From Blasia pusilla (Eukaryota): a stretch of DNA of 64,000 nucleotides. The stretch is taken from the NCBI GenBank assembly GCA_050084515.1, contig CM114271.1, forward strand, positions 23,374,001 to 23,438,000, in the 5' to 3' direction. A program made the position numbers and the translations under genes. Below the pieces are notes generated by a model. It did not search any database. It saw only the letters and a program-made list of their open reading frames with translations, and was not told the origin of the DNA. Below, in pieces: positions 3,001 through 46,959 of the stretch (position 1 is the first letter of the stretch; the number at the start of each line of letters is the position of its first letter).

Positions 3001-3190
3001 TTAGGTTACATGGGATCGTTATGGCGTACCTAGGGGGGGGCCAAGGCTCTCGAATTCGCCAACATTTTTTATCCCCGTCTACAATCGGCTAGAGGAGCCA
3101 CTTGTATCCCAGGAAATTCCTTTTGTACTGTCACCCAGGAGAGTTAGGAGTAAATTTGTAGATGATGAGGCTGAAGAAATAATAGACTAG
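1..3190 (+). pseudogene. 3' part of ParB/amino-methyltransferase-like cargo gene, copy A (exons ..1424, 1913-2418, 2959-3190)
   Basis: VDLLIADLPSGL (motif IV-like) and YLSDRG in ORF 1107-1445. Intron 1425-1912 (GTAAGG..TTTACAG). Next exon reads MDHSYLYYFVRP..EKSPALMQMLIELCSRPGDLVFDLVGLSGASIKGAWQSGKNILCLE (motifs X/I/II of beta-class N4/N6 MTases). Intron 2419-2958 is phase-compatible with a last exon ending RSKFVDDEAEEIID*. Stops and frameshifts present. Confidence 0.75.
1480..1810. repeat. Palindromic CAACCCGTCGG/CCGACGGGTTG repeat cluster in cargo-gene intron, copy A
   Basis: Several degenerate copies, e.g. AACCCGTCGGAACCCGACGGGTTG near 1605 and CAACCCATCGGAAGGCGACGGGTTG near 1763. Confidence 0.85.
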
Positions 3191-4294
3191 GTCAAATGTA
3201 TATTTCCGAGGTTCCTTCGGAGGTAATAAAGGACGAGATTTTTTCAACCCATAATGGTGTTTGTAAAAGTTTGCTGGAATATTTTGTTGGACTTGTGGAT
3301 TGTGTTCTTTTAGCTACTCAGAATGACAATTTTGCAACCCGTATGATTCCGACAGGTTGCAACTTTTTGCTTTTTTCCCACTGCAACTTTTTAACCATTT
3401 CCAAGCAAGCTATCGGATTCCGACAAGTTGACTTCTTGAGTGATCGGACTCTTTCACTGTGAGACCAACTTCTGACGCATTGTGGCGGGCTTCTTAACGT
3501 TTGTCTCGTTCCCCTACATTCGTCAAACCAGTTGTAGGCTTCTTTTCTTGTCTAAGATGTGCAGGATTCCTACTACCTATCGGATTGCCGTTTCGGATTC
3601 CCAACCTGTTAGATCGTCGTGGGTGCAGGGTGGAAGAAAATCACTTCTAAAAATCTTTCCTTTCTTATGGTGAGCTTTCTTACGGGTTGGGAGGGGTGCA
3701 GCTTCTCAGTTTCTCAGCCTTAGGATTTGAATGAAGGGACATTAGTTCCTCTTTACTCTCACACAGCTAACAATCTTTTGGTTCAATTATCCTCTCATGT
3801 GTTCACATTTCACAAATTTGGTCTCGAGCAGACACCATTCATAACCAACAGAAAGTTGGTTATGGGGCAATTCAAGGGAGGCCATGATGCAGGCAACAAT
3901 CCCTACAAAAAGAGAGGTTGGCATCCGGGTGGTCCTCCAACAAAAATACCCCTTGGGCATTGCTTTTTGTAGACCGAGACAGGTAATGTTAAGAAACTTA
4001 GGCTCAGATGGAGAGTGATGGAAAAATGTTTGTAGTGGTCTTATGATGTCTACTTTTTTTTCGCCCCCAGGAAAAAGGAGGTTTTTTTAGGGCCAAATGT
4101 GGACCACTACCTACTCTCTTCTAAAGATTTCATGAATTTGAAAGCAAACAAAAATTTCAAATATGTCAAAAAGTTTTGAAGAGAGGAGGCGGATTTGGCC
4201 CTTTTTTTTTAAGAGAGACTCTCCTCTCTTCCTCTCTTCCTCTCCTCTCTTACTTTCTCCTGCCACAATACCAGCCCCCGATGTTGCGGAACAC

Positions 4295-8540: not shown

Positions 8541-9104
8541 CACATGGGAGAGAGGAGAGATAAGTTTCAAGAACGTACATATTTTGGAACATAACTAGAT
8601 TCTGCTGCTAGTTTAAATCCTCTTGCCACTTATGAATTTGGTGATGATGCTTTGAAGATTTGGCGACATAAGAAGCAAAAATATATCTGGCATGACCTCC
8701 ATCCTTTGAGTAGTGATGAAGAATGTGCAAATTTAGAGACTATGCCTTAGTTGGAGCTAATAAAGTTGTTGTGGAGACTTTGAAGGAAGGGTTGCAAGAA
8801 GCAAGAAGCATGTGTATTATGATGCAGATGTGTCCACATTCATCTTGCAAGGAAACAGATCGAATATGGTGGGAGATGCCTTGGGAGGTGGAGAAAAAAA
8901 CTTGGTTGCGTGATTGCCAAGAATTATCAATTTTTTATCTGCATTGTGAAGTTGATTATGAAACAACCCTTATGAAAAACGAGCATGCAAGTTATCGTGA
9001 TGGTGTAAGGGCAAACATTTGGAATGATTTTGTTCCATTAGTTCACTCGTCTAATTTGTGGAATGAACCAAATCCTCCCTTAGTTCTCCCAAGTGATAAC
9101 AATA

Positions 9105-11816
9105 GGGGGCTGGTATTCTGGGAGGAGAGAGTAAGAGAGAGAGTAAGAGAGGAGAGTCTCTCTAAAAAAAAAAGGGCAGAATCCGCCTCCTTCTTTAAAA
9201 CTTTTTGAAATTTTGAAATTTTTGTTTGCTGTCAAATTCATGAAATCTTTAGAAGAGAGTAGCAAGTGGACCACATTAGGGCCAAAAGTAACCTTCTTTT
9301 TCCTGGCTTGGAAAAATAAGTAGACATCATAAGACCACTACAAACATTCTTTCATCACTCTTCATGTGAGCCCAATTTTCTTCACATTTCCTATCTAAGC
9401 CAGCTCTATAGACAGTCGGGCTGAGGGGTATTATTGTTGGAGGACCATCGGCAGATAATTTGACCAGAAGTAACAATTTCATCTCAATGAAAGGTTCAAA
9501 TAAAGACTCTAACTATGGTCTCAATAGACTCTTATGCCCTTCAAGGTTTAACTTCTCCAAAGATGTGGTTGATATTATGGATTGTTGACTCTTCTTGCAA
9601 AATGCATTAAATATCCCATCCCATCAATACTCATCCATGAGGGGGCTTTAAACAACAGAAAAAATCACTCATCACTAATGGTAGCCGAAGACTTTCATGA
9701 CAACATTGATGATGTTGGCTCATGAATGGGTGCATAAAGTATACCATGGAGTGCTATGCGTTTGAAAACTTGGTTTCACCATTCTCTCAGCCACTGAGAA
9801 ATGTATGCATCAAGAAGAAAATGTGATCAGACTGAGAGGACAATTGAAGCAAAAGGTTGATAGTTGTCAGGAGTAAAGAAGAACTGATGCACCCATGTCC
9901 CTTCATTTAGACCCTAAATGTCGGAATCCGACAGGTTGCAACTCTTGCAACCCGTCGGGATCCGATGGGTTGCACCCATTGCAAGCAAGGACACCACAAG
10001 AAAAGAAGGATCTTGATAAGTGATTCCATTCCACCCTGCAATCCATAAGAATCCGATAGGTTGGGAATCCAACATGAAAATCTGACACGTAGTAGGAATC
10101 CAACACGCCTCTAAAATACCGTGTTAGAGAAGAATGGTGTGACGATAATGGGGGAACCAGGCAAAAGTGAAGAAACCTGCTTGAATGCCTGAAAAGTTGG
10201 ACTAACAGGAAAAGAGTGGGATCACTCAAGCAGCCAACTTGTCAGAATCTGACAAGTTGCCTGAAAGGGGTTTAAAATATTGTGACAAGTTGCAACCCGT
10301 TGGAATCCGACGGGTTGCAAAATAAACAACATCGAGTAGATAGACCAACACAATTGACAAGAACAAAAAAAAATTCATCAAAATTTTACAAAAACCATCA
10401 TGGTTCAAAAACTTCTTGTCCTTTATTACATCCGAGGGAAGCTCAGAAATGTACATTTGATCTAGTCTATGATTTCTTCAGCCTCTTCATCTAAAAATTT
10501 ACTCCTAACTCTCCTAGGTTCTTGTACAAAAGGAATATCTTGGGATACAAGTGGCTCCTCTAGCCGATTGTAGACCGGGACTATAAATGTTGGGGAATTC
10601 GAGAGCCTTGGCCCCTCCCTAGGTACACCATAATGGTCCCATATAACATGATTTGAGTCCTAACCCCTTCCTCGATAGTAAATCTTGTATGCTCTACAAG
10701 GTGACACCCATCCAATATCAATATGTGCTCCGTCCTTGGAAAGCACTAAATCCCAACTCCAAAACACTTCAGTCAAGCTTGGTCCAATAAATCTTTGAAC
10801 TCACTTGTGATCGTCCGATAGCTCTTCCAGAATTACTATTAGCTTTGCCCTCCGGATTTTTGGAATAGTAGGAAGTGACGATGGTGTCTCTATCAATGGT
10901 GGCTCTAGAATTGGAGTTGTTGGCTTTGTAGGAGAGTTGTATACTCCCACTAGCCTCTCGTAATCCGCCTCTACCTCTTTGCAAAGGTCAAAAAGTTATG
11001 GCCTTCCCTCAAGGCAGAGAATGTTCCTAGCACTCTACCATGCGCCTTTGATACTTGCCCTTGATAGGCCCACTAAGTCAAAGACCAAGTCACCCAGCCT
11101 CAAGCAAAGCTCCATGATTGTTTGCATCAAGGCAGGTGACTTCTCCCTTCCTCCAAGTAAGGGGGTCCCTTCCTCCATGAAAATTCCCAGGGGGGAATTG
11201 TAGAGATTATCTAAGCTATACCCATCGGAGCATGGATCCACTAGATCCGGGATCAGGAACACCAGGAAGTTGTGCTCGGGCCTTATAAAGCAGTAGACAA
11301 ATGAGTGGTCCATCTATGAATAAGCAGGTGGAAAATAATGTTAGCAAAGAGAAAAAGCTAGTGGACCGCTGGTCTACTCTCAATATAGTAACACAATGTG
11401 CAACCGGTCGGGATCCAACGGGTTGCTCATTTGGCTAGGCAGAGGAGCAACCTGTCGGAGTCCGACGGGTTGCTTTTCAACCCGTCCTACTAGTCCATAG
11501 TGATTACCAACCCGTCCAAACTTGGCCTATAGGCCTGACAGAACAACAACCTGTCGGAGTCCGACGGGTTGTTTTACAACTCTAAGTGGATTCTTTGGCT
11601 ATGAGCAATCCTTCTAAAGCTGACCCGCCAACAAGTTGCTCATTTTGTTGGACAGAACCTCCACCTGTCGGAGTTTGATGGTTGGCTTACAACTGAATAC
11701 AATTGTTCAGAGTTGAGAAGTTCCTAATATCATAGCAACCCGTCGCTTTCAGAGAGATTGCATCACTCCAAAAACATGCGGAAAAGCAATGCTACTTGCA
11801 ACCCATTGGGTTTCGA
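9105..11816 (+). mobile_element. MULE-MTase element copy C (diverged left end, interrupted by copy B)
   Basis: Begins GGGGGCTGGTATTCTGGGAGGAGAGAGTAAGAG. Contains the subterminal block, the last two cargo-gene exons (minus strand) and a palindrome-rich intron. Confidence 0.8.
10462..11313 (-). pseudogene. Last two exons of amino-MTase-like cargo gene, copy C
   Basis: MDHSFVYCFIRPEHNF..GGREKSPALMQTIMELCLRLGDLVFDLVGLSRASIKGAW*, then a last exon ending VRSKFLDEEAEEIID*. Confidence 0.75.
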
Positions 11817-12825
11817 GGGGGCTGGTATTCTGGCAGGAGAGAGTAAGAGAGGAGAGGAAGAGAAGAGAGTCTCTCTTCAAGAAAAAGGGCCAAATCCGCC
11901 TCCTCTCTTCAAAACTTTTTGACACATTTGAAATTTTTGTTTGCTTTAAAATTCAGGAAATCTTTAGAAGAGAGTATTTAGTGGTCCACATTTGGCCCTA
12001 AAAAAACCTCCTCTTTCCTGGGGGCGAGAAAAAAGGAGACATCATAAGACCACCCTAAACATTTTTCCATCACTCTCCATGTGAGCCTAAGTTTCTTAGC
12101 ATTCCTTGTCTTGGTCAACAAAAAGCAGTGCCCTTGGTATTTTTGTTGGAGGACCACCCAGATGGGTACCTCTCTTTTTGCAGGGATTGTTGCCTGCATC
12201 ATGGCCTCCCCTAAATTGCCCCATAACCAACTTTCGGTTGCAGAATGGTGTCTGCTCAAGACCAACTTTCTGAAATGTGAACAAATCAGATCCTAAGGCT
12301 GAGAAACCGAGAAGCTGCACCCCTCCCAACCCGTAAGAAAGCTCACCATAAGAAAGGAAAGATTTTTAGAAGTGATTTTCTTCCACCCTACACCCACGAC
12401 GATCTAACGGGTTGGGAATCCGAAATGGCAATCCGACAGGTAGTAGGAATCCTACACATCTTAGACAAGAAAAGAAGCCTACAATTGGTTGGACGAATGA
12501 AGGGGAACGAGCCAAAAGTCAAGAAGCCCGCCACAATGCGTCAGAAGTTGGTCTCATTGGGATAGAGTCCGATCACTCAAGCAATCAACCTGTCGGAATC
12601 CGACAGATTGCCTGGAAATGGTTAAAAAGTTGCAGTGGGCAAAAAGCAAAAAGTTGCAACCCGTTGGAATCATACGGGTTGCAGAACTGTAATTCTGAGT
12701 AGCTAAAAGAACACAATCCACAAGTCCAGAATCATATTCCAGCAAACTTTTACAAACACCATTATGGGTTGAAAAAATCTCGTCCTTTATTACCTCCGAA
12801 GGAACCTCGGAAATGTAGATTTCAC

Positions 12826-15800
12826 CTAGTCTATGATTTCTTCAACCTCGTCATCTATAAATTTACTCCTAACTCTCCTCGGTGACAGTACCAAAGGAAT
12901 GTCCTGGGATTCAAGTGGCTCCTTTGGCCGATTGTAGACGGGGATCGAAAAAATGTTGGCGGTCGAGAGCCTTGGCCCCCCTAGGTACACCATAACGGTC
13001 CCATGTAACCTGTCTCGAGTCCCACCGCTTCCTCGGGCAGAGACCTTGTACGCTCGCAATGTGACACCCATCCAATATCAATATCCGCTCCGCCCCGGTA
13101 ATACCATTATGGCAACCGCACAGGTAGAAGGAATCCAACACGCCTCGAGAGAAGAAAAGAAGCCTCACGCCGCCTTTACGAGTTGAGGGAAGGTGCCAAG
13201 GAAGAAGCCCGCCAGATCGCCTCTTAAGTTGGACCAACAGGAAAGGGTCCGATCAGGCAACCTGTCGGAATCGCAGAGTTTCCCGGAGGTGGTAAAAGGG
13301 TGCGATGGTCAAAAGCGAAAAGTTGCAAGCGAGGAGAAACCGGACGGGTTGCAAAGTGGTCATAAAGTGAAAAGTTGCAAGCGAGGAGAAATCGGACGGG
13401 TTGCAAAATAGAAGTCCGTGGAGTACATAGACGATCACATTCGAAAAGACAAAAATGATCAGCAAACATTTACAAGCACCACCATCGTTGAAAAAAATCT
13501 TTTGCTTTATATCATCCGAAAAAGCTCTGAATCGACATTTGATCTATTCTATGAAATCTTTTGCCTCATTATCAAAAAACTCCCTACTCCAAACGCTGTA
13601 GTCAAGCTGGGTCGTTGAGTTCTTTGAACTCACTTGTCATCGTCCGAGAGCTCTTGCAAAATTACTTTCGGCCTTGCCCTCCCGATTTTTGGAATCGTTG
13701 GAAGTGACGATGGAGTCACTACCAACGGTGGGTGGGTGGGAACCGAGCTCGGCCGGTGGAGAGTTGTACACCCCAACAAGCCTTTCATATTCTGCCTTTG
13801 CCTCCTTGCAAAGGTCAAACAGTTCCTGCCTTCCCTCGAGGCAGAGAATGTTCCTGCCACTCTGCCAGGCGCCTTTGATACTTGCCCCTGAAAGTCCCAC
13901 TAAGTCAAACACCAAGTCACCGAGCCTTGAGCAGAGCTCGATGAGCGTTGCATCGTGGTCGGTGCAACTTTTCCTTCCTCCCGAAGTGGGGGTCTTGTCT
14001 TGCATGTAAATTCCGGGGAATTGTACAAACTATCTAAGTTGCACCCATCGAGCATCGATCCACAGGATCCCGGATCTTGAACACCTGGAAATTGTGCTCG
14101 GGCGAACGAAGCGAAGAGCGGGAGTGGTCCATCTCAGTAAATCAACACGTTGGAAACAATGTCGAAACTAAAGAAGTCGGCTTGAGAACATTTTCAATAA
14201 TCGACTTTGGATCAACTTTCGGAGTCGGATGGGTTGTTTTGTCCCGGACCAACCCGCCGCCTTCCGATGGGTTGGTCGTGACTAAAACAACCCGTTGGCT
14301 CCGTTTTTTGTCCGTGAGCAACCCGTCGGAAGCGCGACGGGTTCTTTCGCCTAGAGCAGCCCATGCTCGTTGAGAGCAACCCGTCGCTATCAGGACGGGT
14401 TGCATCCAAAACCAAAATCAACCGGGAAAAACCAAAAGCAAGCGCAACCCGCCGGTTCCGACGGGTTGCGTACACCGCGTTTTCCTGTGTATGTGGGAAA
14501 GATGCAACCCGTCGGAAACCGGCGTGTTGCTCTCACCGAGCACGGGCTGCTCTAAGCCAAAGCAACCGTCGCCTTCCGACGGGTTGCTCACAGACAAAAA
14601 CAACGGAGATATACTTCGAGAGTTGTTTTTGTCCATGAGCCTTATCCGAATTGAGCCTTATCCGAATCTGACTCGTCGCGGATCGGAGTGGATACTCGTT
14701 TTTGATGATCCACGATTGCGCCGTCCTCCACTTTAGCGACCTCTTGACGCACTGGAGGTTGAAGAGCTTGTCCTTGCTCCCTCCAGTCAACACCAAGAAG
14801 CAGCCCCTGTCACTCAGATAGGCGTCTGCAAAGGAGAACAAAAGCGCAATCTGGTCATAAGAGAGCGGCACATTCCACTCAGGTACCTCGTCCAACGGAT
14901 TCTCGCCCCGAAGTCGCAACCCCGAGAGCAGATCGGCGATCAAGAGATCCACCGCAACCTCTTCCACCACTCCATTCACCGTCCAGGCAGCGTGCCCGTT
15001 TCGTTGGAGCTTCCGTCCCAACGTTGTCAATTTTTCTATGGCTGGTGTCGACGCTTGAGAACTGAAGCTCTTCAACTCATCCAATAAAGGAGTGAATTGA
15101 AGGAGGACGCTTGTCCGGGTCGTTGTTTGTCTGTGTCTTCCCAAGGATGATGGACTGTATTCTCCTTGGGACAACCCGGGCACCTCTCGCTTCCGCTTCT
15201 CCCTAGCCTGGGGACGGCTTGTCGGGGTTTCTATGACCTCAGACTCTTGTGGCGTTTTTTTCGCCGAGGACGTGGTCCGACCCTCTCTCCCCGCTCGTCC
15301 GGACGATTCCGCCTCTGGCCTTGAATCTTCAGCCTCTCTTTGGGAAGACTCGGCCTCTGAATTTTTCCCTCCCCTCGCCTTGCCTTTGAGACCCGCTGTG
15401 GATTTGTCTTTGGCTGTGCGGACCTTGGAAGCCAACTCAACTGTCTCGTGGGCCTGCTCTTTTGCATCTCCTTTGAAGAAGTCTCCAGGCTGGACGAAAT
15501 TGGGGATGTCGTCTTTTCCTGAGGCCAGTGCATCATGAAGCACTCGTAAATCCTTATCGGTGATGTCTTCAGGGTCGTTGAAGTCGAGGCAAATGGGGCA
15601 ATTCTCCACCTCCCAATCGGACATGTCTTCGCCCCATCTCCATGTCGTACATGGAGAATGTCTCGCATCCGGCGCGGCCCACAATTTCAAGGCTACCGTA
15701 ATTTTCCCCACGCACTGCATTCTTACTTTGGACAAGGTACGAAGACCATCCGTTGGGCAGCTTTTAGTCGAACAGAATGAGCCGTCTGCTCTTGTCGATC

Positions 15801-18573
15801 TCGCTTCTTCTTCGCTTGATCCCGTTTGTTACCCTCTACTTCTTCTCAAGCTCTGCCTGAGGGAGGACACAAACCTTGAACATGGTCTTGAATCTTGGGT
15901 TTTTGGTTGGCTTGTCCCGGATGTCGTCGAGCCAAACCTCGAAATCTCCAGAACTTTCAAGGTTTGCTTCCGGCGGATGGGCTCTAATCTTCGAGCTCCG
16001 CTTGCGGGCCCAAAGACGGACTTCCCGATTACCCGCAACGCGTCCCATAACGACCATTCGCGTAGCCAGTGCGAGATCACTGGATCGGACACACCCGGAG
16101 GATGGTGTGCCGCCCTCTTCTGGGCCTCTGAGCCCTCGAGACTGATTTTCATCAGTCGTATCCTCCTAAACTCGCTTATCCGGACAATGCAAACCGATGC
16201 ACGCGATCCAGGGACACTTTCTCCCCAATCTGACCATGCGGATCTTCATCCCTTTTCCGCTGGCGCTTGATAATCGCCTTCAGCTCCTTGTAGAACTCCG
16301 GACCAAGTTTGGGGTTGAGAATGCTGATGTATCGCTGCATCTTGCTCGCCGTGTATTTCGTTGCTGCAGATACTGCAGCTTGGATGAATTTGGCGCGCTC
16401 AGACGCAGATACCTTCTCCCTCCGCTCCAGCTCTAGTGCAGCGCTTTTCTTCGCGGCGTGTATCTTTGACCAGCAAAGGATGGTTATGGCTGCATCTTGG
16501 GAAATAAACTTATTTGCCCAAGTTTTCTTTTTAATCTGAGCACCCTTTGCAAGCATCTGATTGACAAGGGTATCGCCCAAGAACCCCGTGTACTCTCCCG
16601 GGTGCGTCGTAAGCACCTTCCTCACCCGATCGCAGTCCTAGATCCAGTGGTGGGTGACATTCCCCTCCGATACAATCTTGCACATCCAAACTCAACCCGT
16701 CAGGAAATTACATGGGTTCCTGCAGCCCGGCCGGACTCCGGACGGTCGCCATGACTCAGGTCGGATTCTAGCAACGAAGCTAAATGATGCAACCCGTCGG
16801 AGTCCGACGGATTGCATTCAGATTTGCTAATGCGTGGTAAGCAAACCGTCGAGTCCGACGGGTTGCTCGACAGGCCGCCTTGTCAAGATGATTTTTGAAG
16901 AATGCAACTCATCGGACTTCCACGAGTTGTTCGAGTGACTGCAGGTTTAGAAGGTTTTTTCCCCAAAGCAACCCGTCGAGTCCGACGGGTTGCTTGCCTC
17001 GAAGGTGTTTTTCCCCAAAGCAACCCGTCGGACTCCGACGGGTTGCTTTGGGGAAAACCCTTCTAAACCTGCAGTCACTCGAACAACTCGTCGGAGTCCG
17101 ACGAGTTGCATTCTTCAAAACATCTCGAAACGGGTTGTCAAGCAACCCGTCGGACTCGACGGTTTGCTTTGGGCCAAAAACTAGTTAAATCTATGGTCAA
17201 TCAAACAACTCGTCGGAGTTTGACGAGTTGTATTCTTAAAAAAACATCCAAAAAAGCGTGCAGTCGAGCAACCCGTCGGAGTCCGACGAGTTGCTTTCGG
17301 AAAAAAATAAACCTAACCCATTCATCAATCGAGCAACTCATCGGAGTCCGACGAGTTGCGTAAGTGTTAAAGATACTCACGTGTTCATGGCATGCATTGC
17401 CATCTCCACCGTCGCCATGTGATGAGGGAATGGGTGAAGGACCACTGCCTTCACGCAGAAATGTGCCTCCAATGAGTTGGGCCGCTCCTGCGCAAACTTG
17501 GTCCACGCCATGAACCTGTGATTTCCATCCCAGATGAAGAAATGCAGATTCCTCATTCAGCTGAATTCGGTGCCCTCAATTTGCCTTCTGAAATCCTGGT
17601 CTCGCATCCTCCAGAATGTGTCGAGCTTTTCCAAGTCCTCCTTGGTAACCAGAGCTTGGGTTCCATGCTCGTCGTAAGGCTGAACAAAGAAGGGAGGAAA
17701 GTTGTCGACGTAGGATGTTGTCGCCGCCGATTGTTTAAGCTTCGCGATGTCCTCGTCGGACTGAATTTCGCGGACGTATTCCATTGTCCACAATCGGCAG
17801 AGTGGAATCCTCGGGGCGTTGTGGCCCTCCATGAGTGCCATCGGCTTTACCACCTGTCAGAACCGGGACAAGATGAATAAGCTACACTGAATTCCCAATG
17901 AATTGCAATTCACATAATTCAAAAAACCCATATCCTCTCTTACCCGCTCGAAAATGGGGTCGGTTTCTTGACCAGCTAACTTGTCTGAGACAGAAGCTGG
18001 CAAATCGACTGGGAACTCGTCGATCTGATAGAGGTCGATGTCCTCCGCCGGGCTTGGAGTCGAGAATGACCGCTCTCCGGCTTCTTCGGCCATGTCCACC
18101 ATCTCCACGCTGGCGGTCCTCATGACCTCGTCGTCATCGATTTCAACTTCTCGCGTTTCCACTATGTTGATTGTGTCCCCGGACTTTGTGGGGGACATTT
18201 CCCGCATCTCAACACTTGTGGTTGGACGGGTTGGGCTATCGTCAATGGCTATCGCTTTTTCCCTCCTCGCTTTAGCCAATTCTGCCCTCCTCACCGACGC
18301 GTCCAAACGCTTCTTTTCTCTCCTTTCGTCGGCGATCCTTTTCTTCAAGGCCTGCGACGTCTCAGCCTCTACGTTCTGTTTATCTAGTGCCTCTTGAACA
18401 CGTCTCGTAAGAAGCACTTTGTTGTGCATCTCCGCTTCCCTTTCCCGCTCCTCGATTTCCTGCTGCCTAATTTCATTCGCCGAACGAGGCCTAGGAGAAG
18501 CTGACGCAAGAGTCCTAATGGACTTCGGAGTGAAGCTCCCGCACTTGTTGGCTTGTGATTTTTTCCTCGTCAT
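12826..18573 (-). pseudogene. Cargo gene: coiled-coil + ParB-like (WDGNHR) domain + helical region + beta-class N4/N6 DNA methyltransferase-like domain, 5 exons (full extent, disrupted)
   Basis: ATG at 18573 (MTRKKSQ; MMRKKTQ in copy D). Introns 17943-17854 and 17380-~16678 sit at the same positions in copy D. HFFIWDGNHRFMAW, with WDGNHR at 17532-17515. VDLLIADLLSG at ~14920-14955, and IELCSRLGDLVFDLVGLSGASIKGAW in ORF 13637-14005. TGG>TGA stop at 17557, several indels, one splice donor mutated GT>AT. Confidence 0.75.
16785..17360. repeat. Palindrome array and nested hairpins in cargo-gene intron 2 (copy B)
   Basis: Perfect 24-bp-arm palindrome at 17009-17057 (TTTTCCCCAAAGCAACCCGTCGGA-C-TCCGACGGGTTGCTTTGGGGAAAA). 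~100-bp inverted arms span 16893-17120. Confidence 0.9.
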
Positions 18574-18863
18574 TTTTTTTCCGGAAATGCCTCCACCTAT
18601 GTCCACGATTTAATCCCTTGATCGTCGCCTTTGCTGATGTCTAGATGGGGAGCTCAAATCGCCTTGATGGGTAGCTCGAATCGTCCCGCGATCGCTCATT
18701 CGAACCGTCTCGCTGTCGTTCGGTCGAACGGTCTCGCTCTCGTTCCCTCCTATCGACTCGCGATGTGTCGCCGTGTGAAATGCCCTTCAGATCGATCACT
18801 GCCGCTGGGAGAGTGAGGAATGAAGATCGCAAAATGAGAAACCGAAATGAGTGATTTCTGCCC

Positions 18864-18871
18864 TATTTATA
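18864..18871 (-). promoter_or_regulatory. Putative TATA box of cargo gene (TATAAATA)
   Basis: Conserved in context in copy D (TATAAAA on minus strand, 41412-41418). Upstream of the cargo ATG. Confidence 0.45.
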
Positions 18872-18954
18872 CTTTTCTAGCCGTTGGGTGACGTTGGGTC
18901 CCGTCGTCCTTTCGACGGCGGCGCGCCGGATGTTACGGAAGTCCGGCGTGAAAA

Positions 18955-19670
18955 ATGGCAACCCGTCGAGTCCGACAGTTGCGCGCTCCGCCATCTCCGG
19001 TACGCCGCCACGTGCGCGAGCAACCCGTCGAGACCGACGGGTTGAGCGCTCCGTCGTCTTTGAAATGAACGCGAGGTACCCACGCAACCCGTCGGAGACC
19101 GACATGTTGCGCGCCTCCGCCATCCTGGGTACGTTGCCACGTGCGCGAGAAACCCGTCGGAGACCGACGGGTTGAGCGCCTCCGTCATCTTCAGAAAAGA
19201 ACGCGAGGTACCCGCGCAACCCGTCGGAGACCGACATGTTACGCGCCTCCGCCGTGTTTGGGACGGGAACGGGACGTATCTTGGGCAATCCGTCGGAGAC
19301 CATTGGGTTGCACGCTTCCCTCATCAAGTGTTAAGAACGAGGGCTTCCCGTGCAAGTTGTCGGAGTCTGGCTGGCTGCACCACAAGGCGATGCCCTTGCG
19401 CCACCCGTTGGAGGGCGACGGGTTGCACGCCTCGCCGTCTTTGGGCAAAAAGGTGAGGCACCCGCGGAACTCGTCAGGAACAGACGGTTTGCACGCCTCC
19501 GGCATCTTCGGGCAAGAACGAGCGGTATCCGAGCAACTCGTCGGAGAGCGACAGGTTGCTCGCTTCGACAATGTTTTGCAGAAGCGTGCAACCCGTCCGA
19601 TGCCGACGGGTTGCAGGCTTCGGTTAGCTCCGGGTAATTTTTGAGTTACCAGGACTCCGACGGGTTCCAA
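18955..19670. repeat. ~60-66-bp tandem minisatellite built on the palindrome, between the two divergent genes (copy B)
   Basis: Recurring GCAACCCGTCGGAGACCGACGGGTTG followed by related spacers (CGCCTCCGCC..CGAGGTACCC). Confidence 0.85.
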
Positions 19671-19823
19671 GTGTGATGCGCAACCCTCTGCTTCCCAAAT
19701 CCGGTGACATATTGCAACAAAATTGAATGTGTTACAGAATTGGATCCATTGTGTTAGACAATGTCACCCACCGAATTCATCTTGTCAATAAAAATCTGTC
19801 AGGAGTATCTGTTTCCTATTCAC

Positions 19824-19831
19824 TATAAATT
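19824..19831 (+). promoter_or_regulatory. Putative TATA box of transposase (TATAAATT)
   Basis: TATTCACTATAAATTAA is identical in copy D (42511-42527). Followed by (ATTCTC)n and an ATG ~60 bp downstream. Confidence 0.5.
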
Positions 19832-19887
19832 AAAAATTCTCATTCTCATTCTCATTCTCAGTCTCCTCCCGTTGGAATCTTCTTGGA

Positions 19888-22800
19888 ATGGATAATTATG
19901 TTAAGCTCACTTGTGGCAGTCATCTGGCGGCCTTTCCTCAATCAGAAATCATTCGACCCCAAGCTCGTAAGTCTTTCATGGTAGTGGATGAAAATTTTCT
20001 GTCTGTTCGATTTGTTCTCCAAATTGGAACCATCTTTGTATCCAAAGATGTTAGGTGGACGGTGCACGGAAGACATAATAGGTGAGATGGTCCAGCCAAG
20101 TGACCTCGCACCGTAAAGTATGGAATCTCCTACCTCTAGCAAATGGTCAATACAGAGTTAACGGCCCGCCCTCGAATTCGTCATTTCCCAAGTAGACGGT
20201 CTAGAATTTCCTAGTGCTCCGAGCTCTACGTTTGCAACTCCAAGCTCTGCAGATCCGGCTTCAACTCCAACTTTGCACGCTCGTAACAATGTTGTTCTTC
20301 CTGAAGAGATTTCGGATGTTATCAACCTCAGTGGATCCGCTTCGGACACCAATCGGGCCCTCTGTCGCCTACTGTTCCTCTTGCAGTATCAGGCAATAGT
20401 TTGCTTTCGTCTCGGCCTTGAAAATGTTCAAGCACATTCTTGTCGACGAGCTGCCGCCCACGTATGATGGTAATTGCATTTTTGAGTTGCCTCCACTTGC
20501 TGCTCTTGCTCAAAAGAAGGATGGAGGACGCATGAAGGGTATGGACAAAAAGTCTGATTGTCATTGATGGTGTAGGCTTCAACGGACTAGTGCTTCAATT
20601 CCAGATGGTCCTTGGATTGTCTCCTACCGCCAATGCGTGGGAGCCTTGGAGTGTAGAAGTCCAGCATGCCCGTATCTAGAGCGCAACGGGCGAGTCAATA
20701 CGTCGCAATTCCCTCCCAAGAATGCAGATACTCCATACGAGGTCGGTGCCACCATACCGCCGGGAGGCCATCGATGTCCTCATTGTCGTCGCATCGCCCT
20801 TCGCGTTGGAGCGTGTCCTGCATACATATTTTTCATTGTCCACGACTTGGGCTCCACGTCAGAGTATACAAGACTGGCAGTCCATGTTGGCTCCCACACT
20901 CATCCTGTGACCGATGCAATTCAAAGACACATCAAGGAGGATGTGGCGAAGAAAGTAGTCGAGGTCTACAAAAACTCTCCTGGTTCAAAGCCCGGAGTGA
21001 TCAAGCTCACAATGGCATCACAAATTTGTGAACAATTGCTTGGAATCCCTGGACAGGGCGAGATTATGGCGGTTGAGGAGAAACAACTCTGGGAGAATCT
21101 CGCATTTCTCGCTGATCGTGAATGCTTCCGGAATTTGCCGCGTCAAATACGAGTTTTGGATGGAAAGACGGCCGAAATGGATGCCATCGCCAGAATCAAG
21201 GCCAACTCCAGATTTCCATTCATTCAGAGATGGCAGTTCATGCGCCAAGGAGGCGAGGGATCGAGGGCCTATGTCTTCAAAATATCAACCACAGGTCCGT
21301 TGAGTGACCTCGATCTAATAGATCAAATGAGGGAAGGGGAAGATCTTTACGGGAGTTGGGTAAGCTTTGATATTTGCTACAGAGTGTTGAATGGATGGTT
21401 GACGATGGGTGCTCACGTTTATGACCATGTGGAGAAGGGACTCAAAACTATATTTTTCTGTGAAGTAAAGGCAGAAGACGTTGGCAGTTTGAAGATGTGC
21501 TGGTTACTCTTATTGGAGGTGGTGAAGGAAAACAAAAGGCCACCTCCGGAAATTTATGGGTTCATGGCAGACAATGCACAACTTGGGTGGATTGCTATCC
21601 GGGAAGTGTTCTCGGGTGGAGAGGTTCAACCGGAGAGGGAAAGGTCGGATGCTTTCCATTGGCAACAGTCTGTGACCCGGTACACCAAATCTTGCATCAA
21701 GGAGAATAAGAGGACAAAGCATGTGACTCTACTCCAACGCTGCAAGGACAGAAAAACCTTGAAGCAGGCCATGGAATGCCAGGAAGAACTTCATGGGTGG
21801 TGGAGGAAGCATGCGATTGAGGGGAAGTACAAAGAGTTGTGCTCTTGGTTGAGTTGGTGGATCAGACGTATGAGACAATGGGGAAACTTCATGTGGCAGG
21901 TGAGTTCACTATTTTGTCTTGTCAAGCTCACGCTGAGAATTTTTTGTAAAGTTGTAGCTCAGGGTGAGAAGCGTGGGAACTATATGGATTTCAAACCCAA
22001 GAAACCAAGCAAGCTGTCGGATGCGACGGGTTGCCCGAGTGTGCAACCCGACGGAAACCGACGGGTTGCATCTAGATGTTTGGTGCAACCGGAGTGTGCA
22101 ACCCGTCGGGACCCGACGGGTCACAGAGTCGTTCATGGGATGCCTCGGCCTTGCAACCCATCCAGTTCCGACGGGTTGCAGTAGGTGGGTTTAAGGTTAC
22201 AACACGTCGGGACCCGACGGGTCGCATAGTCGTTCATGGGATATCTCGGGCCTACAACCCATCTGGTTTCGACAGGTCGCTTATTTCTTTGACTCCTGAG
22301 TTATTTTTGTTCCCTTCTAACATTGCCGTCGTTGCAGGGATTGAACGTTCATGAAAATGCCCTCTGCCCCAACACAAGTGGAGCAGAAAGTGTTCATTCC
22401 TCTTGGAGGTCGTCACAAGCATGCCAACGAATTTCACTTGTGGAGGCATGCCAACAAGACCAGGCAAGAGCAATGCTATAGTTTGCAACATCCCATATCT
22501 TCCTCACAAAAGGCATAACAAAAGGAAAGGGGCGGTCGATCTACGAGCTCTATGTCAAGGCGGCTGTGAGATCTGGTGATGAAAAAATGTATGTCGAAGC
22601 CTTCAACCGGTGCGTAGCTGGAACTCCCCTCGAGCAAGACGTACACATTGGTGGGGATATTTGTGGGCAGATTTCAAGACGTCCCATACAGATGGTGGTA
22701 GAGCAGTCCGAACGAGACTCGTGGAGATCAGATAAGTATCTTGACTTCAGACAGGTGAAGAGGCAGCATCGAGGAACGAATCCGGTGATTGATTTGGATG

Positions 22801-23349
22801 AGGAAATTACACCGCCGAGGTATTCGGGGACCCCGGACCCGTCCCAAATCCGTGATGGAGTTACTCCTCCAAAATCAGTGAATGTTTTATTTCAAAAGCC
22901 CTCCGTTGCTGGAAGTTTGCAACATCCTGTCATTGGGGTGGTTCAACAATATGGGATTCCGGTAATGGAGGTGGATTGCAACCTAAAACGGTGGCATATA
23001 TCTCGGAGCAACCCAGGACGTGGACCCACCTGTAGGGCAGGATCTGATGGCATTAGGAGAGCATGCGGCACTTTCCTAAATAAGAATCTGACAAGGATCG
23101 GACGACCATCGCTGGGTTTTGGGGACTCAAAACCTTTGATCGTTTCACGAGGACGGGGATTAATTGAAGTACTTCTTACGCCCAAATGAATCTTGCGCTT
23201 TCGAAGTCTTATCCGCCGCCATAGGAGCTCCGAGAATACCCCCACGATTTGGCCCATCGCCGCAGGCACGAACTGCACTCAAGACGAAGTGGACAATCTT
23301 ACAAGTGCCGGTTTCAGACTCGTAGACGGGGGAAGTTTGGAGCATGTTC
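19888..23349 (+). pseudogene. Mutator-like (MULE) DDE transposase, copy B (3'-truncated; intron 21900-22337)
   Basis: Cys/His DNA-binding module (CVGALECRSPACPY..CPHC..CPA..HVGSHTHP, GCM/WRKY-like). Catalytic D in VSFD (21369), D in MADNA (21570), DAFHW at the C/DxxH position. After splicing, NTSGAESVHSSW supplies the E (22386), matching the MULE TNNxxESxH pattern. Confidence 0.8.
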
Positions 23350-25221: not shown

Positions 25222-25238
25222 TATAGTCGAAGACTTTT

Positions 25239-41104: not shown

Positions 41105-41499
41105 GGTGCACGTTGGGTCAGTTCTTCCTCCTCGACAGTCTCATATGCTCCTGTGCATAACAGATCCCTCAAAGCTTTGATGGAGTCCCTAAACCCAACT
41201 CTTGAAGCGTTTCATGATGAAGCGCCGTGACCCTCGAGCGGATGGGCTTGCCGAAATCTAACCCTCAAAGCATCGGGTGTTGGATTGTCGTAACCTTCCA
41301 GTAAAGGGGTGAATGTAATCGACTTTGGCAGCGGAAAGGTAACCTCAGCTACTGCGAGGAAGAGCACATGAAATCGCAAAATGAAAAACGGAAAGGACCA
41401 AAATCTCAGCCTTTTATACTTTCAAGCCGTTGAGCTGACGGTTGGGTCGTACAAATGGCGACGTGTCGGCCGTTATGGAACTTTGCACGTAGGAACCGG

Positions 41500-42430: not shown

Positions 42431-42587
42431 ATTGAATCCATTCCGTCAGACAATCTCACCTACCAAATAGCATCTTGTCAGTCATATTCTGTCAGGAGAA
42501 TAACGGTCACTATTCACTATAAATTAAGCATTCTGATTCTGATTCTTATTCTTATTTTCATTCTCCACCCGGTGGAATAATCCGGGA

Positions 42588-46616: not shown

Positions 46617-46959
46617 ATTGTACTTTCATTTGCCAGAACCTTCACTTTGAGCTTGAACTCTATTCAGCCCAGGGCAAATGATAGATTTTTTCCCGACCTT
46701 GGATGGAAAAGTGATTTGTTCCATATTTATGATTCCAATGATTTTTCAAATTTGAAAATTTTGTGCAAATTGCAACCCGTCGGATTCACATGGGTTGCAA
46801 TTCAGAAAATTTTTCCTCTCTTCAACCCAACGGAAACTCTCTTCAAATCACTGGAAACTCTCTTAAAAAAAAGTATCTCTTTGGGTTGAAGGTAGTTTCC
46901 TTTCGCCTCTCTCAACTCTTCCTCTCCTCTTACCGCTCCTCATGACAATACTATAGACT

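What the first reader, a model, noticed from the sequence alone, without database searches (positions are those of the whole stretch)
11817..23349. Mutator-like transposon carrying a spliced ParB / N4-N6 DNA methyltransferase-like fusion gene
Seen: four partial copies (1-4279, 9105-11816, 11817-23349, 38202-46951) reconstruct one ~12.4-kb unit with a shared terminus, a MULE-SWIM transposase and a head-to-head 5-exon cargo gene. The cargo has WDGNHR followed by beta-order MTase motifs (IV first; KS..L..LIEL.SRPGDLVFD..G.SG..GKNILCLE last). Established: ParB-like + beta-class amino-MTase fusions are typical of phages and bacteria, and bacterial-derived N4mC MTases occur in Marchantia and bdelloid rotifers. 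Inference: this is a stable, intron-bearing two-gene DNA transposon that may mark or read its own DNA with a non-5mC modification. The cargo is kept in diverged copies with the same intron positions, unlike random Pack-MULE capture.
Basis: partly seen in the sequence, partly recalled or inferred. Interest (0 to 1): 0.92.

Follow-up and report, generated by a model that had tools for sequence, protein, structure and literature searches.

The report
Plant Mutator-like transposon with methyltransferase-like passenger gene
The window holds four decayed copies of an abundant Mutator-like DNA transposon that carries a second, intron-containing gene ending in a bacterial-type DNA-methyltransferase-like domain, an arrangement so far described only in algal transposons.

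Summary
The repeat is real. Self-BLAST finds four partial copies, and three share one sharp terminus with unrelated flanks. Two genes lie head-to-head.

The transposase is MULE-like by language-model features (top score 0.97) and a sub-threshold SWIM hit. Pfam finds no MULE domain. No TIR or TSD could be checked.

The passenger gene's last exon is homologous to the AdoMet-binding end of beta-class N6_N4 DNA methyltransferases (hhalign 97.4%, E 9.5e-12; PHROGs 3e-5). The upstream half aligns to motif IV-VI only weakly (P 0.008). It has DLP[STK] or DIPT, never [DNS]PP[YFW], in 0 of 5 family members.

ParB-likeness rests on the WDGNHR motif and a sub-threshold DUF1015 hit. Six other searches and one profile comparison found nothing.

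I count four exons, not five. Intron positions are shared between diverged copies. dN/dS is 0.04-0.5 in all tested coding parts except exon 1.

All four copies are broken. RNA reads are sense-stranded but sparse, and only the transposase intron has split-read support.

A ParB-like + DNA-methyltransferase accessory gene opposite the transposase is already published for the Ectocarpus Sola1 element, so this is a new member of that kind. An element-specific 27-bp palindrome fills all non-coding parts.

The parts
11817..23349 (.). Copy C of the element: left terminus to a truncation point inside the transposase gene
   Evidence: Self-BLAST; termini
11817..11900 (+). Left terminus GGGGGCTGGTATTCTGGCAGGAGAGAG..., shared with copy A (4279 downwards) and copy B (9104/9105 onwards), each with different flanks
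13630..18573 (-). Passenger (cargo) gene of copy C, about 1,190 codons if intact; broken here
17944..18573 (-). Cargo exon 1 (210 codons, charged and low-complexity). The start ATG is conserved in D. dN/dS is 1.29.
17854..17943 (-). Cargo intron 1, GT..AG at the same position in C and D
17381..17853 (-). Cargo exon 2, putative ParB/Srx-like. WDGNHR lies at 17532-17515. C has an in-frame TGA at 17559-17557 where D has TGG.
16673..17380 (-). Cargo intron 2. The GT donor is conserved in C and D. The AG acceptor is intact in D and displaced by 1 nt in C. The intron is full of 27-bp palindromes.
14662..16672 (-). Cargo exon 3 (about 670 codons): helical region, CPICLDF region, charged linker, then the N half of the methyltransferase-like domain. 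The motif IV-like DLLS lies at 14934-14923. C has several frame breaks.
14085..14661 (-). Cargo intron 3. The donor is AT in C and GT in A. A 17-bp duplication sits at the donor. The bin 14127-14511 inside it has zero RNA depth.
13630..14084 (-). Cargo exon 4: C-terminal half of a beta-class methyltransferase-like domain (motifs X-I-II). Motif I (GDLVFDLVGLSG) lies at 13921-13886. C has frame-shifting deletions; copy A's version (1964-2419 +) is intact.
18574..19887 (.). Divergent intergenic region with a tandem array (65-bp unit, 4.6 copies, 18958-19253) of the 27-bp palindrome
19888..21899 (+). Transposase exon 1. The MDNY start is conserved in C and D. The 538-codon open frame runs 20568-22184. 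An in-frame stop lies just upstream where homologues have R.
21900..22337 (+). Transposase intron, GT..AG. It is seen as a joint in 14 RNA reads over 3 runs and not in DNA run X1.
22338..23349 (+). Transposase exon 2, truncated at 23349. C has a frame break relative to D.
1..4279 (+). Copy A (cargo on the + strand): exon 3 part to 1424, intron 3 1425-1963 (GT..AG), intact exon 4 1964-2419 plus stop, then the 3' region and terminus at 4279. DLPS lies at 1152-1163.
9104..11816 (-). Copy B: terminus, 3' region, exon 4 (two in-frame stops) and part of intron 3. It abuts the terminus of C.
38248..46783 (.). Copy D: a diverged subfamily covering cargo exons 1 to 3 (part), the intergenic array, and the transposase with an internal gap of about 540 bp. 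A SWIM-like finger lies at about 46443-46535. The right end is undefined.

Best explanation
These are four dead, partly nested copies of a very abundant DNA transposon family. The host is a eukaryote, probably a plant: the cargo's only named relatives are from liverworts. An intact element would carry two divergently transcribed genes.

Gene 1 is a MULE-type transposase: an N-terminal Cys/His region, a D..D catalytic core, an intron, and a C-terminal SWIM finger.

Gene 2 is a passenger gene of about 1,190 codons in four exons. Its C-terminal 270 or so residues form a divergent beta-class (N6_N4 family) DNA-methyltransferase-like domain split by an intron. The AdoMet-binding motifs are kept, but DLP[STK] stands where DPPY should be. 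Its second exon carries a WDGNHR motif typical of ParB/Srx-fold modules.

The passenger gene was maintained by selection while subfamilies diverged, so it serves the element.

Most likely mechanism (inferred, not shown): the accessory protein is made from the shared divergent promoter region. It docks on the element's own non-coding DNA, where the element-specific 27-bp palindromes are the obvious candidate sites. There it uses its AdoMet-binding domain to modify or occupy that DNA, counteracting host silencing or licensing transposition. This is the role proposed for ParB-like + methyltransferase accessory proteins of algal transposons.
For: Transposon. Self-BLAST finds the copies. Three copies share one terminus with unrelated flanks. 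115,415 contigs of DNA run X1 lie on the 11.5 kb, most at 90-99% likeness.

MULE. In the Atlas feature search the top cluster scores 0.97 with 198 shared features and carries PF10551 in 61% of members. Nine of the ten best family-bearing hits share that family or clan. SWIM scores E 0.0048. VSFD and FMADNA..ERERSDAFH are invariant in 4 of 4 aligned sequences.

Methyltransferase end. PF01555 matches at E 0.0025 on profile positions 165-217 of 221. All 4 PDB hits at E<=10 are M.RsrI and DpnA. PHROGs DNA-methyltransferase families match at 3e-5 and 6e-5. All 8 PADLOC hits are MTase_II or MTase_III. tblastn finds 231 phage records, and every listed match with a named function lies under a DNA methylase or methyltransferase gene. 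hhalign gives 93.8% against one phage enzyme and 97.4%, E 9.5e-12, against a six-phage profile. In the Atlas, 24 of 30 nearest clusters are PF01555.

N half. The best hhalign alignment puts DLP on DPPY and the following helix-strand on motifs V-VI (77 columns, P 0.0079).

Selection (dN/dS with one-sided binomial p). A-C exon 3: 0.37, p 3e-4. C-D cargo exon 2: 0.14, p 5e-7. C-D exon 3 start: 0.05, p 3e-22. Transposase: 0.22 and 0.31, p 7e-8 and 1e-6. Exons are 78% identical between C and D. Introns are 63-65% identical, with 27% gaps in intron 2.

Introns. Splice sites sit at identical positions in C and D (introns 1, 2) and in A, B and C (intron 3).

RNA. Sense-strand reads cover both genes in 3 of 3 RNA runs.

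Palindrome. 96 of 96 12-mers (0.12 expected by chance) and 29 of 29 full palindromes lie inside the copies, and those in C are all non-coding.

Precedent. PMC12477816 (passages) and 10.1101/2025.02.11.637652 (section 8).
Against: Pfam finds no MULE domain in the window ORF or in homologues P0001 and P0002.

No TIR was found, no complete copy is present, and TSDs could not be tested.

ParB: there is no hit to ParB_N or any ParB family in Pfam, NCBIfam, PHROGs, PADLOC, PDB or phage tblastn. hhalign against three plasmid ParB_N proteins gives P 0.45.

The PF01555 score of 18.2 bits is below the gathering score of 26.7. The six phage templates were picked because they matched this exon, which flatters the hhalign E-values.

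The N half is not significant against a single phage enzyme or against PDB. hhalign probability is only 5%.

Motif IV lacks the second proline and the aromatic residue in all 5 members.

Both AlphaFold models were unusable, with pLDDT 39.8 and 36.6.

No cargo splice junction appeared among the joints listed, and reads also fall in intron 2. RNA reads are few (276-416 per run) and mostly 90-95% alike, so they come from other copies.

Every copy in the window is broken. Exon 1 shows no constraint (dN/dS 1.29). CpG decay can inflate synonymous counts.
Confidence: 0.7

Rival explanations
1. The methyltransferase-like domain is a pseudo-enzyme. It still binds AdoMet or DNA but does not methylate bases. 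The accessory protein then acts as a reader, scaffold or anti-silencing factor, like VANC of VANDAL elements, rather than as a writer of 4mC or 6mA.
For: 0 of 5 family members have [DNS]PP[YFW] at motif IV; they have DLPS, DLLS, DLPT, DLPK and DIPT. Motifs X-I-II are well kept. The N half is under constraint (dN/dS 0.40 over 113 codons) and has invariant D, W, N and G columns down to 27-33% identity. From recall: METTL14 (EPPL) is a precedent for a non-catalytic methyltransferase-fold partner.
Against: The invariant Asp of motif IV and one proline remain. A conserved Trp about 19 residues later could supply stacking. Non-canonical motif IV variants may still be active on other substrates. No biochemical or methylome data were available.
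Confidence: 0.35
2. The passenger is a chance capture of a host gene, Pack-MULE style, with no function for the element. The copies merely descend from one non-autonomous amplified variant.
For: All four copies are defective. C and D share a frame change near 16185. Exon 1 evolves neutrally. Pack-MULE capture is common in plants (recall).
Against: The full-length intron-bearing gene is kept next to a transposase gene in both copies that span the junction. C and D have dS of 0.3-1.8, yet dN/dS is 0.04-0.24 in cargo exons 2 and 3. Intron positions are conserved while intron sequence has diverged. The same architecture recurs in unrelated algal transposons (PMC12477816).
Confidence: 0.08
3. The element is not a MULE. 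It belongs to another DDE superfamily, for example a Zisupton/KDZ-like or novel lineage that also uses SWIM fingers.
For: There is no Pfam MULE, Transposase_mut or FAR1 hit in 3 of 3 proteins tested. No TIR was found. Only 2 close homologues were found among 5.8 billion clustered proteins. In red algae related accessory genes caused misclassification as Mutator (10.1101/2025.02.11.637652, section 21 passage).
Against: Atlas features point to MULE in 9 of the 10 best family-bearing hits, with a top score of 0.97. The tool states that shuffled proteins reach 0.95 or more about once in 100. The D..D spacing, the ...FH motif and the C-terminal SWIM fit MULE architecture (the pattern itself is recalled).
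Confidence: 0.15
4. Exon 2 is not a ParB/Srx module. WDGNHR is a coincidental motif in an unrelated domain, so the protein is simply an N-terminally extended methyltransferase-like protein.
For: Seven negative tests. The AlphaFold model was uninformative.
Against: The motif is conserved in the diverged copy D (WDGNHS) inside an exon with dN/dS 0.14. The only sub-threshold Pfam hit is DUF1015 (E 0.013) over the motif region. DUF1015's best structural neighbour is the kinase SbnI (10.1101/2024.10.14.618325, passage), which I recall as ParB/Srx-fold. Published algal counterparts are annotated ParB-like + methyltransferase (PMC12477816).
Confidence: 0.4

Closest known systems
Accessory gene of the Sola1-1_Ec32 transposon of the brown alga Ectocarpus (PMC12477816, passages read)
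   Same: It is a large protein (1104 aa there, about 1,190 codons inferred here) on the strand opposite the transposase inside a DNA transposon. [quoted passage not shown] The same self-binding, self-modifying hypothesis is proposed.
   Different: The transposon superfamily differs (Sola1 versus MULE-like), as does the host lineage (brown alga versus a relative of liverworts). Here motif IV is non-canonical and ParB-likeness is unproven. Sequence relatedness to the Ectocarpus protein could not be tested because no sequence was available.
Plavaka accessory genes PAG2 and PAG3 of red algae, also reported on Chondrus Mutator elements (10.1101/2025.02.11.637652, section 8 read)
   Same: These are DNA transposons carrying DNA-modification-type accessory genes and a ParB-like module. 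Tandem arrays of inverted repeats lie beside the ParB-like gene. Most copies are degenerate and transcript levels are low.
   Different: There the ParB-like module is fused to a 2OG oxygenase (PAG3), and the N6-adenine methylase is fused to SET (PAG2), in separate genes. Here one protein carries the WDGNHR module and the methyltransferase-like domain.
Prokaryotic and phage beta-class N6_N4 DNA methyltransferases (PF01555; M.RsrI, DpnA, N15-type phage methylases)
   Same: The C-terminal motif X-I-II region is homologous. The motif order is the beta order, with a IV-like segment upstream.
   Different: DLP[STK] or DIPT stands in place of DPPY. The domain is split by a spliceosomal intron. It sits at the end of a protein of about 1,190 residues. 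Pfam's gathering score is not reached.
VANDAL (MULE) elements of Arabidopsis with the anti-silencing protein VANC (cited in the Bostrychia preprint; details recalled)
   Same: It is a MULE-type element that carries an extra gene acting on the element's own chromatin, with sequence-specific targeting of motifs spread over non-coding parts of the element.
   Different: VANC is unrelated in sequence and is not methyltransferase-like. It causes loss of methylation.
MpDN4MT1a/b of Marchantia and N4CMT of bdelloid rotifers (10.1101/2021.02.12.428880, passages read; PMC8885841, listing only)
   Same: These are bacterial-type amino-methyltransferase domains in eukaryotes, one of them in a liverwort.
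   Different: Those are host genes with canonical (T)SPPY and shown 4mC activity. They are not transposon passengers. No similarity to them was tested here.
Pack-MULEs
   Same: A Mutator-like element containing non-transposase coding sequence.
   Different: Pack-MULEs lack a transposase and carry gene fragments. Here a complete multi-exon gene is kept under selection beside the transposase.

Membership tests
MULE (Mutator-like) transposon superfamily | DDE transposase core recognised as the MULE domain (PF10551) | tested here: inconclusive
   Pfam gives no hit at E<=1 for the 538-aa ORF or for P0001 and P0002. Atlas features: top cluster 0.97 with PF10551 in 61% of members, and 9 of the 10 best family-bearing hits agree.
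MULE (Mutator-like) transposon superfamily | C-terminal SWIM zinc finger (common, not universal) | tested here: inconclusive
   PF04434 scores E 0.0048 and 16.8 bits, below the cut-off of 19.6, in copy D only. A CSC..(n)..PCKH motif is visible.
MULE (Mutator-like) transposon superfamily | Terminal inverted repeats | tested here: not met
   No inverted copy of the first 40 or 500 bp of the element occurs anywhere else in the window, apart from copy A's own terminus. No copy has its right end, so the test is weak.
MULE (Mutator-like) transposon superfamily | 8-11-bp target-site duplication | not testable with these tools
   No complete copy lies in the window and no genome is held.
N6_N4 DNA methyltransferase (PF01555, beta class) | AdoMet-binding region, motifs X-I-II (..KP..L...I....GD.V.D.F.GSG......GR....E) | tested here: met
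   hhalign gives 97.4%, E 9.5e-12 over 77 columns, and 93.8% against one phage enzyme. PHROGs matches at 3e-5. M.RsrI matches at E 0.036. The hhalign templates were chosen by similarity to this exon.
N6_N4 DNA methyltransferase (PF01555, beta class) | Pfam gathering score reached | tested here: not met
   18.2 bits against 26.7, E 0.0025, on copy A's last exon only. There is no hit on the N half.
N6_N4 DNA methyltransferase (PF01555, beta class) | Catalytic motif IV [DNS]PP[YFW] | tested here: not met
   0 of 5 aligned members have it: DLPS, DLLS, DLPT, DLPK, DIPT.
N6_N4 DNA methyltransferase (PF01555, beta class) | Beta order: motifs IV-VIII upstream of X-I-II in one fold | tested here: inconclusive
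   The best hhalign alignment of the N half is in the expected register, at P 0.0079 and probability 5%. Nothing was found against a single enzyme or PDB. AlphaFold gave pLDDT 39.8.
N6_N4 DNA methyltransferase (PF01555, beta class) | DNA methylation activity | not testable with these tools
   No methylome or enzyme data.
ParB/Srx-fold domain | Sequence match to ParB_N or another ParB-clan model | tested here: not met
   No ParB family hit in Pfam, NCBIfam, PHROGs, PADLOC, PDB or phage tblastn. hhalign against 3 ParB_N proteins gives P 0.45. The only hit is DUF1015 at E 0.013, below its cut-off.
ParB/Srx-fold domain | DGxHR-type motif after a beta strand (motif recalled) | tested here: met
   FFIWDGNHR in C and FFIWDGNHS in D.
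ParB/Srx-fold domain | ParB/Srx fold | tested here: inconclusive
   The AlphaFold single-sequence model has pLDDT 36.6. No fold search was run on it.
ParB-like + DNA methyltransferase transposon accessory genes (algal class, PMC12477816) | Large gene inside a DNA transposon, on the strand opposite the transposase | tested here: met
   Head-to-head in C and D. RNA strandedness is opposite for the two genes.
ParB-like + DNA methyltransferase transposon accessory genes (algal class, PMC12477816) | Homology to the published algal proteins | not testable with these tools
Pack-MULE | No transposase; captured host gene fragments without constraint | tested here: not met
   A transposase gene is present. 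Cargo dN/dS is 0.04-0.5.

The most novel reading that the evidence does not exclude
The intact accessory protein is a self-targeting epigenetic writer of a new catalytic type. Its WDGNHR module binds the element-specific 27-bp palindromes (GCAACCCGTCGG-N3-CCGACGGGTTGC) that fill every intron, the divergent promoter and the subterminal region. Its DLP-motif methyltransferase domain deposits a non-5mC mark there. This would give a land-plant transposon its own private DNA-modification system to escape or steer host silencing.
Probability: 0.12. Interest if true: 0.8.

Novelty: new member of a known kind. Interest (0 to 1): 0.5.

Why it matters
Transposons that carry their own DNA-binding and DNA-modifying accessory protein have only recently been noticed, and only in brown, red and green algae. 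None has been tested functionally.

This family would extend the class to a Mutator-like element in a lineage whose nearest database relatives are liverworts. Liverworts are a group in which bacterial-type 4mC methylation is already known to matter in sperm.

The family is very abundant and its passenger gene shows clear purifying selection. It also offers a concrete candidate binding site, a 27-bp palindrome confined to the element. Together these make the idea that a transposon writes or reads its own mark directly testable by EMSA, heterologous methylation assays and long-read modification calling.

The non-canonical motif IV raises a second question: whether such passengers are enzymes at all.

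Tried and rejected
- No whole genome is held for the window, so copy census, TIR/TSD and linkage at other loci could not be done.

Structure and complex prediction.
- AlphaFold2 of the methyltransferase N half (5-row alignment) gave pLDDT 39.8. AlphaFold2 of exon 2 (single sequence, X at the stop) gave pLDDT 36.6. Both are too poor, so no fold search was run.
- Complex prediction of the two methyltransferase halves returned no verdict (score 0.07, mark 0.34). It is not used as evidence.

Homologue and locus searches.
- 'Longer' forms of the 431-aa ORF: none.
- Relatives of C's last exon: none at E<=10.
- The metagenome scan with the transposase alignment gave one 2,078-bp contig at 46% identity, too short to test linkage. 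The palindrome is absent from all 14 fetched loci.

Sequencing runs.
- No RNA holder was listed by the run index. Only raw-read RNA runs of the same species label could be laid.
- The joints at 16826/17021 (CT..AG, 14 letters between) and 17020/17268 (opposite strands) lie in palindrome-rich intron 2. I read them as copy variants or palindrome artefacts, not splicing.

ParB template search.
- PF02195 searches found nothing in five phage records. They found three plasmid ParB_N proteins, and the comparison with those was negative.
- The phage and plasmid methylases that match the last exon carry no ParB domain.

Gene-structure ideas rejected.
- A micro-intron as the explanation of the shared frame change near 16185. 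It would remove residues conserved with Riccia proteins and gives the wrong phase.

Full report
**1. The observation**

A self-BLAST of the window confirms four partial copies of one repeat.
- Copy A (1-4279) matches copy C in reverse (C 16069-11817) at 86.6-89.1% identity.
- Copy B (9104-11347) matches C 11816-14103 at 74.7-81.0%.
- Copy D (38248-46131) matches C 15980-23349 in five blocks at 67.5-88.2%. It has a gap of about 540 bp corresponding to C 20687-21227.

A, B and C start with the same terminus (GGGGGCTGGTATTCTGGCAGGAGAGAG...), and the sequence outside it is unrelated in each. That marks a true element boundary hit three independent times. C's terminus directly abuts the inner end of B, which looks like a nested insertion.

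No inverted copy of the terminus exists in the window. C breaks off at 23349, where C and D diverge. No copy shows a right end.

When Logan contigs of DNA run X1 were laid on copy C, 115,415 contigs matched. 26,692 were at 99% or more, 42,575 at 95-99% and 40,781 at 90-95%. The family is very abundant and heterogeneous in that organism.

**2. Host**

No genome is held. The sequence is eukaryotic: it has spliceosomal introns and retrotransposon fragments.

The only database relatives of the cargo ORF were 4 proteins in 1.84 billion representatives. Three of them are hypothetical proteins of the liverworts Riccia sorocarpa and R. fluitans, at 27-33% identity. I therefore call the host a relative of liverworts only loosely.

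**3. The transposase gene (+ strand)**

An MDNY... start is conserved in C (19888) and D. C has a 538-codon open frame at 20568-22184. It is preceded by an in-frame stop where homologues have Arg.

Only two close homologues were found, Logan proteins at 38-39% identity, plus one 2-kb metagenome contig at 46%.

Pfam finds no family in the ORF or in the homologues. The Atlas feature search on residues 1-445 returns MULE clusters:
- The top score is 0.97 with 198 shared features.
- PF10551 is present in 61% of that cluster's members, which are from Streptophyta.
- 9 of the 10 best family-bearing hits share the family or clan.

VSFD and FMADNA...ERERSDAFH are invariant in 4 of 4 aligned sequences. 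This fits the D..D..(C/D)xxH pattern I recall for MULE cores.

Copy D carries CSCDDF...PCKH in ORF 46065-46616. It matches SWIM at E 0.0048 and 16.8 bits, below the cut-off of 19.6.

One intron (21900-22337, GT..AG) is supported by 14 split RNA reads in three runs and is absent from the DNA run. Downstream of it, C and D disagree in frame, and C has an extra frame break.

I accept 'MULE-like' at about 80-85%. TIRs and TSDs are untested.

**4. The cargo gene (- strand) and its structure**

Coordinates in C are below.

| Feature | Coordinates in C | Note |
|---|---|---|
| Exon 1 | 18573-17944 | ATG conserved in D |
| Intron 1 | 17943-17854 | GT..AG at the same place in C and D |
| Exon 2 | 17853-17381 | |
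| Intron 2 | 17380-16673 | GT conserved in both; AG intact in D, displaced by one base in C |
| Exon 3 | 16672-14662 | |
| Intron 3 | 14661-14085 | GTAAGG..TCTAG in copy A at 1425-1963; the donor is AT in C, beside a 17-bp duplication |
| Exon 4 | 14084-13630 | |

In copy A one frame runs uninterrupted across the supposed intron. The stretch (ANLESSVDFEVWLEDIRDKP...RVKAAQRMVFRYL...DWEVENC) aligns to Riccia P0003 residues 200-281 in the same frame as the methyltransferase-like part.

The intact product would have about 210 + 158 + 670 + 152 = 1,190 residues.

Riccia gene models P0003 and P0004 both stop at the exon 3 / intron 3 boundary. This fits a conserved intron there.

RNA evidence for cargo splicing is weak.
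- Reads are sense-stranded. The first mate is on + across 12587-18746, and on - across the transposase.
- The bin 14127-14511 inside intron 3 has zero depth in all three RNA runs.
- No cargo splice joint is among those listed, and reads do fall in intron 2.

**5. All copies are dead**

- C has an in-frame TGA at 17559-17557 (D has TGG there) and a TAG at the start of exon 3 where D has CAA (D's frame stays open).
- C also has the shifted intron 2 acceptor, frame breaks around 16090-15980, the lost intron 3 donor, Pro to Leu in the motif IV-like segment, and 1-nt and 4-nt deletions in exon 4.
- A has stops and two frame shifts in exon 3, but an intact exon 4.
- B has two stops in exon 4.
- D has WDGNHS followed by a stop, a broken exon 2 and the transposase gap.

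**6. Is the cargo methyltransferase-like?**

*Last exon: yes.* Copy A's intact version (window 1964-2419) was tested in several independent ways.
- Pfam: PF01555 at E 0.0025, on profile positions 165-217 of 221, below the gathering score.
- PDB phmmer: 4 hits at E<=10, all beta-class adenine methylases. M.RsrI scores 0.036-0.038 and DpnA about 1.
- PHROGs: four (DNA) methyltransferase families, the best at 3e-5 and 6e-5.
- PADLOC: 8 of 8 hits are MTase_II or MTase_III.
- tblastn: 231 phage records and 209 plasmid records. Every listed match with a named function lies under a DNA methylase or methyltransferase gene.
- hhalign: 93.8% (E 1.8e-7) against one bona fide PF01555 phage enzyme, and 97.4% (E 9.5e-12, 77 columns) against a six-phage profile.
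- Atlas, on C's version: 24 of 30 nearest clusters are PF01555.

The aligned segment is EKSPALMQMLIELCSRPGDLVFDLVGLSGASIKGAWQSGKNILCLEGR. It corresponds to motif X (..KP..L), motif I (GD.V.D.F.GSG) and the acidic residue of motif II.

One caveat applies: the phage templates were picked through similarity to this exon.

*Upstream half: weak.* The end of exon 3 has no hit in any library and none against one phage enzyme.

Against the six-phage profile, the single best alignment is in exactly the expected register. vaiDLLI-DLPtG lies on s-d-i-tDPPY, and AnaLlsD-GC-Iil-pGS lies on the motif V-VI helix-strand. It covers 77 columns at P 0.0079, but probability is only 5%.

The low-confidence AlphaFold model shows strand-loop-helix-strand-helix around these segments. 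At pLDDT 39.8 it is not evidence.

I put 75% on a complete beta-class fold split by intron 3.

*Motif IV: not canonical.* None of the 5 members has [DNS]PP[YFW]. They have DLPS (A), DLLS (C), DLPT, DLPK and DIPT.

The family therefore fails a defining catalytic feature of N6_N4 amino-methyltransferases. It should be called methyltransferase-like. Activity is open.

**7. Is exon 2 ParB-like?**

The motif is real and conserved: FFIWDGNHR in C and FFIWDGNHS in D. It sits in an exon with dN/dS 0.14.

Nothing else supports it.
- Pfam ParB_N, NCBIfam, PHROGs, PADLOC, PDB and phage tblastn (E<=10) all give no ParB hit.
- hhalign against three plasmid ParB_N proteins gives P 0.45.
- The AlphaFold model has pLDDT 36.6.

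The one sub-threshold hit is DUF1015 (E 0.013), over residues 69-127, which include the motif. A 2026 preprint reports the serine kinase SbnI as DUF1015's best structural neighbour (10.1101/2024.10.14.618325, passage read). That SbnI has a ParB/Srx fold is my recollection.

I put about 60% on a ParB/Srx module. That figure leans mainly on the motif and on the published algal parallels.

**8. Selection**

Nei-Gojobori estimates are below, each with a one-sided binomial test for excess synonymous change.

| Comparison | Region | dN/dS | Synonymous changes | p |
|---|---|---|---|---|
| A vs C | Exon 3, 15585-14662 | 0.37 | 27 of 61 | 3e-4 |
| A vs C | Methyltransferase N half | 0.40 | | |
| C vs D | Cargo exon 2 | 0.14 | | 5e-7 |
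| C vs D | Exon 3 start | 0.05 | 67 of 98 | 3e-22 |
| C vs D | Transposase | 0.22 and 0.31 | | 7e-8 and 1e-6 |
| C vs D | Cargo exon 1 | 1.29 | | 0.84 |

Over the whole C-frame ORF, A vs C exon 4 gives 1.2, because C is frame-shifted there. The in-frame core gives 0.49.

Exons 2 and 3 are 78% identical between C and D. Introns 1 and 2 are 65% and 63% identical, and intron 2 has 27% gaps.

The cargo was therefore under purifying selection while the subfamilies diverged, and its intron positions were kept. This is the opposite of random Pack-MULE capture. CpG decay was not masked.

**9. An element-specific palindrome**

The 12-mer GCAACCCGTCGG (up to 1 mismatch) occurs 96 times, against 0.12 expected by chance.

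All 96 lie inside the four copies: 9 in A, 11 in B, 41 in C and 35 in D. The copies make up about 43% of the window.

In C all 41 are non-coding. They fall in the 3' region, intron 3, intron 2, the intergenic region and the transposase intron.

29 of 29 full 27-bp palindromes (12-bp arms, mostly a 3-nt spacer) are likewise inside copies. Four to five units form a 65-bp tandem array between the two start codons. Some variants change both arms in a matching way (AACTCG...CGAGTT). Positions are not conserved between C and D introns.

The red-algal paper notes tandem arrays of inverted repeats next to its ParB-like accessory gene (section 8). I take the palindromes as the best candidate binding sites for an element-encoded protein. 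This is inference only.

**10. Comparison with what is known**

The Ectocarpus transposon survey (PMC12477816, passages read) describes, in the 21.5-kb Sola1-1_Ec32 family, a gene on the strand opposite the transposase. [quoted passage not shown] It proposes that they bind and modify their own transposon.

The Bostrychia preprint (section 8 read) describes PAG2 (N6-adenine methylase + SET) and PAG3 (ParB-like + 2OG oxygenase). They occur on Plavaka, Zisupton and Fanzor-encoding elements and on Chondrus Mutator elements.

My full-text searches found no paper linking such a gene to a transposon in bryophytes or other land plants. Subscription literature and supplements were not searchable.

Marchantia's MpDN4MT1a/b are host genes with TSPPY (10.1101/2021.02.12.428880, passages). 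They are a different case.

**11. Verdict**

This is a new member of the recently recognised class of DNA transposons with a ParB-like/methyltransferase-like accessory gene. It differs in sitting in a MULE-like element, in a liverwort-related genome, with a DLP motif and a dense private palindrome.

Function is untested and every local copy is dead. Interest is moderate (0.5).

Noticed in passing
window 16170-16200 (copy C) and 38440-38470 (copy D), minus strand: C and D share, without any indel between them, a change of reading frame between ...DRVHRFAL and ISEFRRIRLMKISLEG. Riccia proteins read straight through this point. Both sides are under purifying selection in the C-D comparison (dN/dS 0.04 upstream, 0.24 downstream). 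Possible explanations are recoding, a shared old lesion or a systematic assembly indel in a short G run. A micro-intron does not fit.
   Followed up: partly
window 1496-3360, 9928-11746, 12587-22225, 38996-46783: A 27-bp palindrome, GCAACCCGTCGG-N3-CCGACGGGTTGC, is confined to the four element copies and to their non-coding parts. It includes a 65-bp tandem array at 18958-19253. Some variants carry matching changes in both arms.
   Followed up: partly
window 24114-25226 and 33634-34817: A direct repeat pair, 90.5% identical over about 1.2 kb and about 9.5 kb apart, looks like the two LTRs of a retrotransposon lying between copies C and D.
   Followed up: no
window 5752-7752 and 35963-37952: Two 2-kb stretches are 70% identical. 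The first contains an integrase-like translation (..HFSKWIELVALP.., ..LTDQGTEF..). They are probably fragments of another retroelement family.
   Followed up: no
window 11817-12201: RNA reads over the element's terminus are mostly in the opposite orientation to the cargo transcript (first mate on the - strand). They have many loose ends at 11882, 12041 and 12097, suggesting transcripts that enter or leave copies at the terminus.
   Followed up: no
window 14636-14667: An exact 16-17-bp tandem duplication (TGAGCCTTATCCGAAT x2) sits at the cargo intron 3 donor of copy C. It is absent from copy A.
   Followed up: yes
window 46000-50000: G+C drops to 36% just beyond the last recognisable part of copy D. 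An open frame at 46896-47168 has unknown identity. It is unclear whether this is the element's right portion or another sequence.
   Followed up: no
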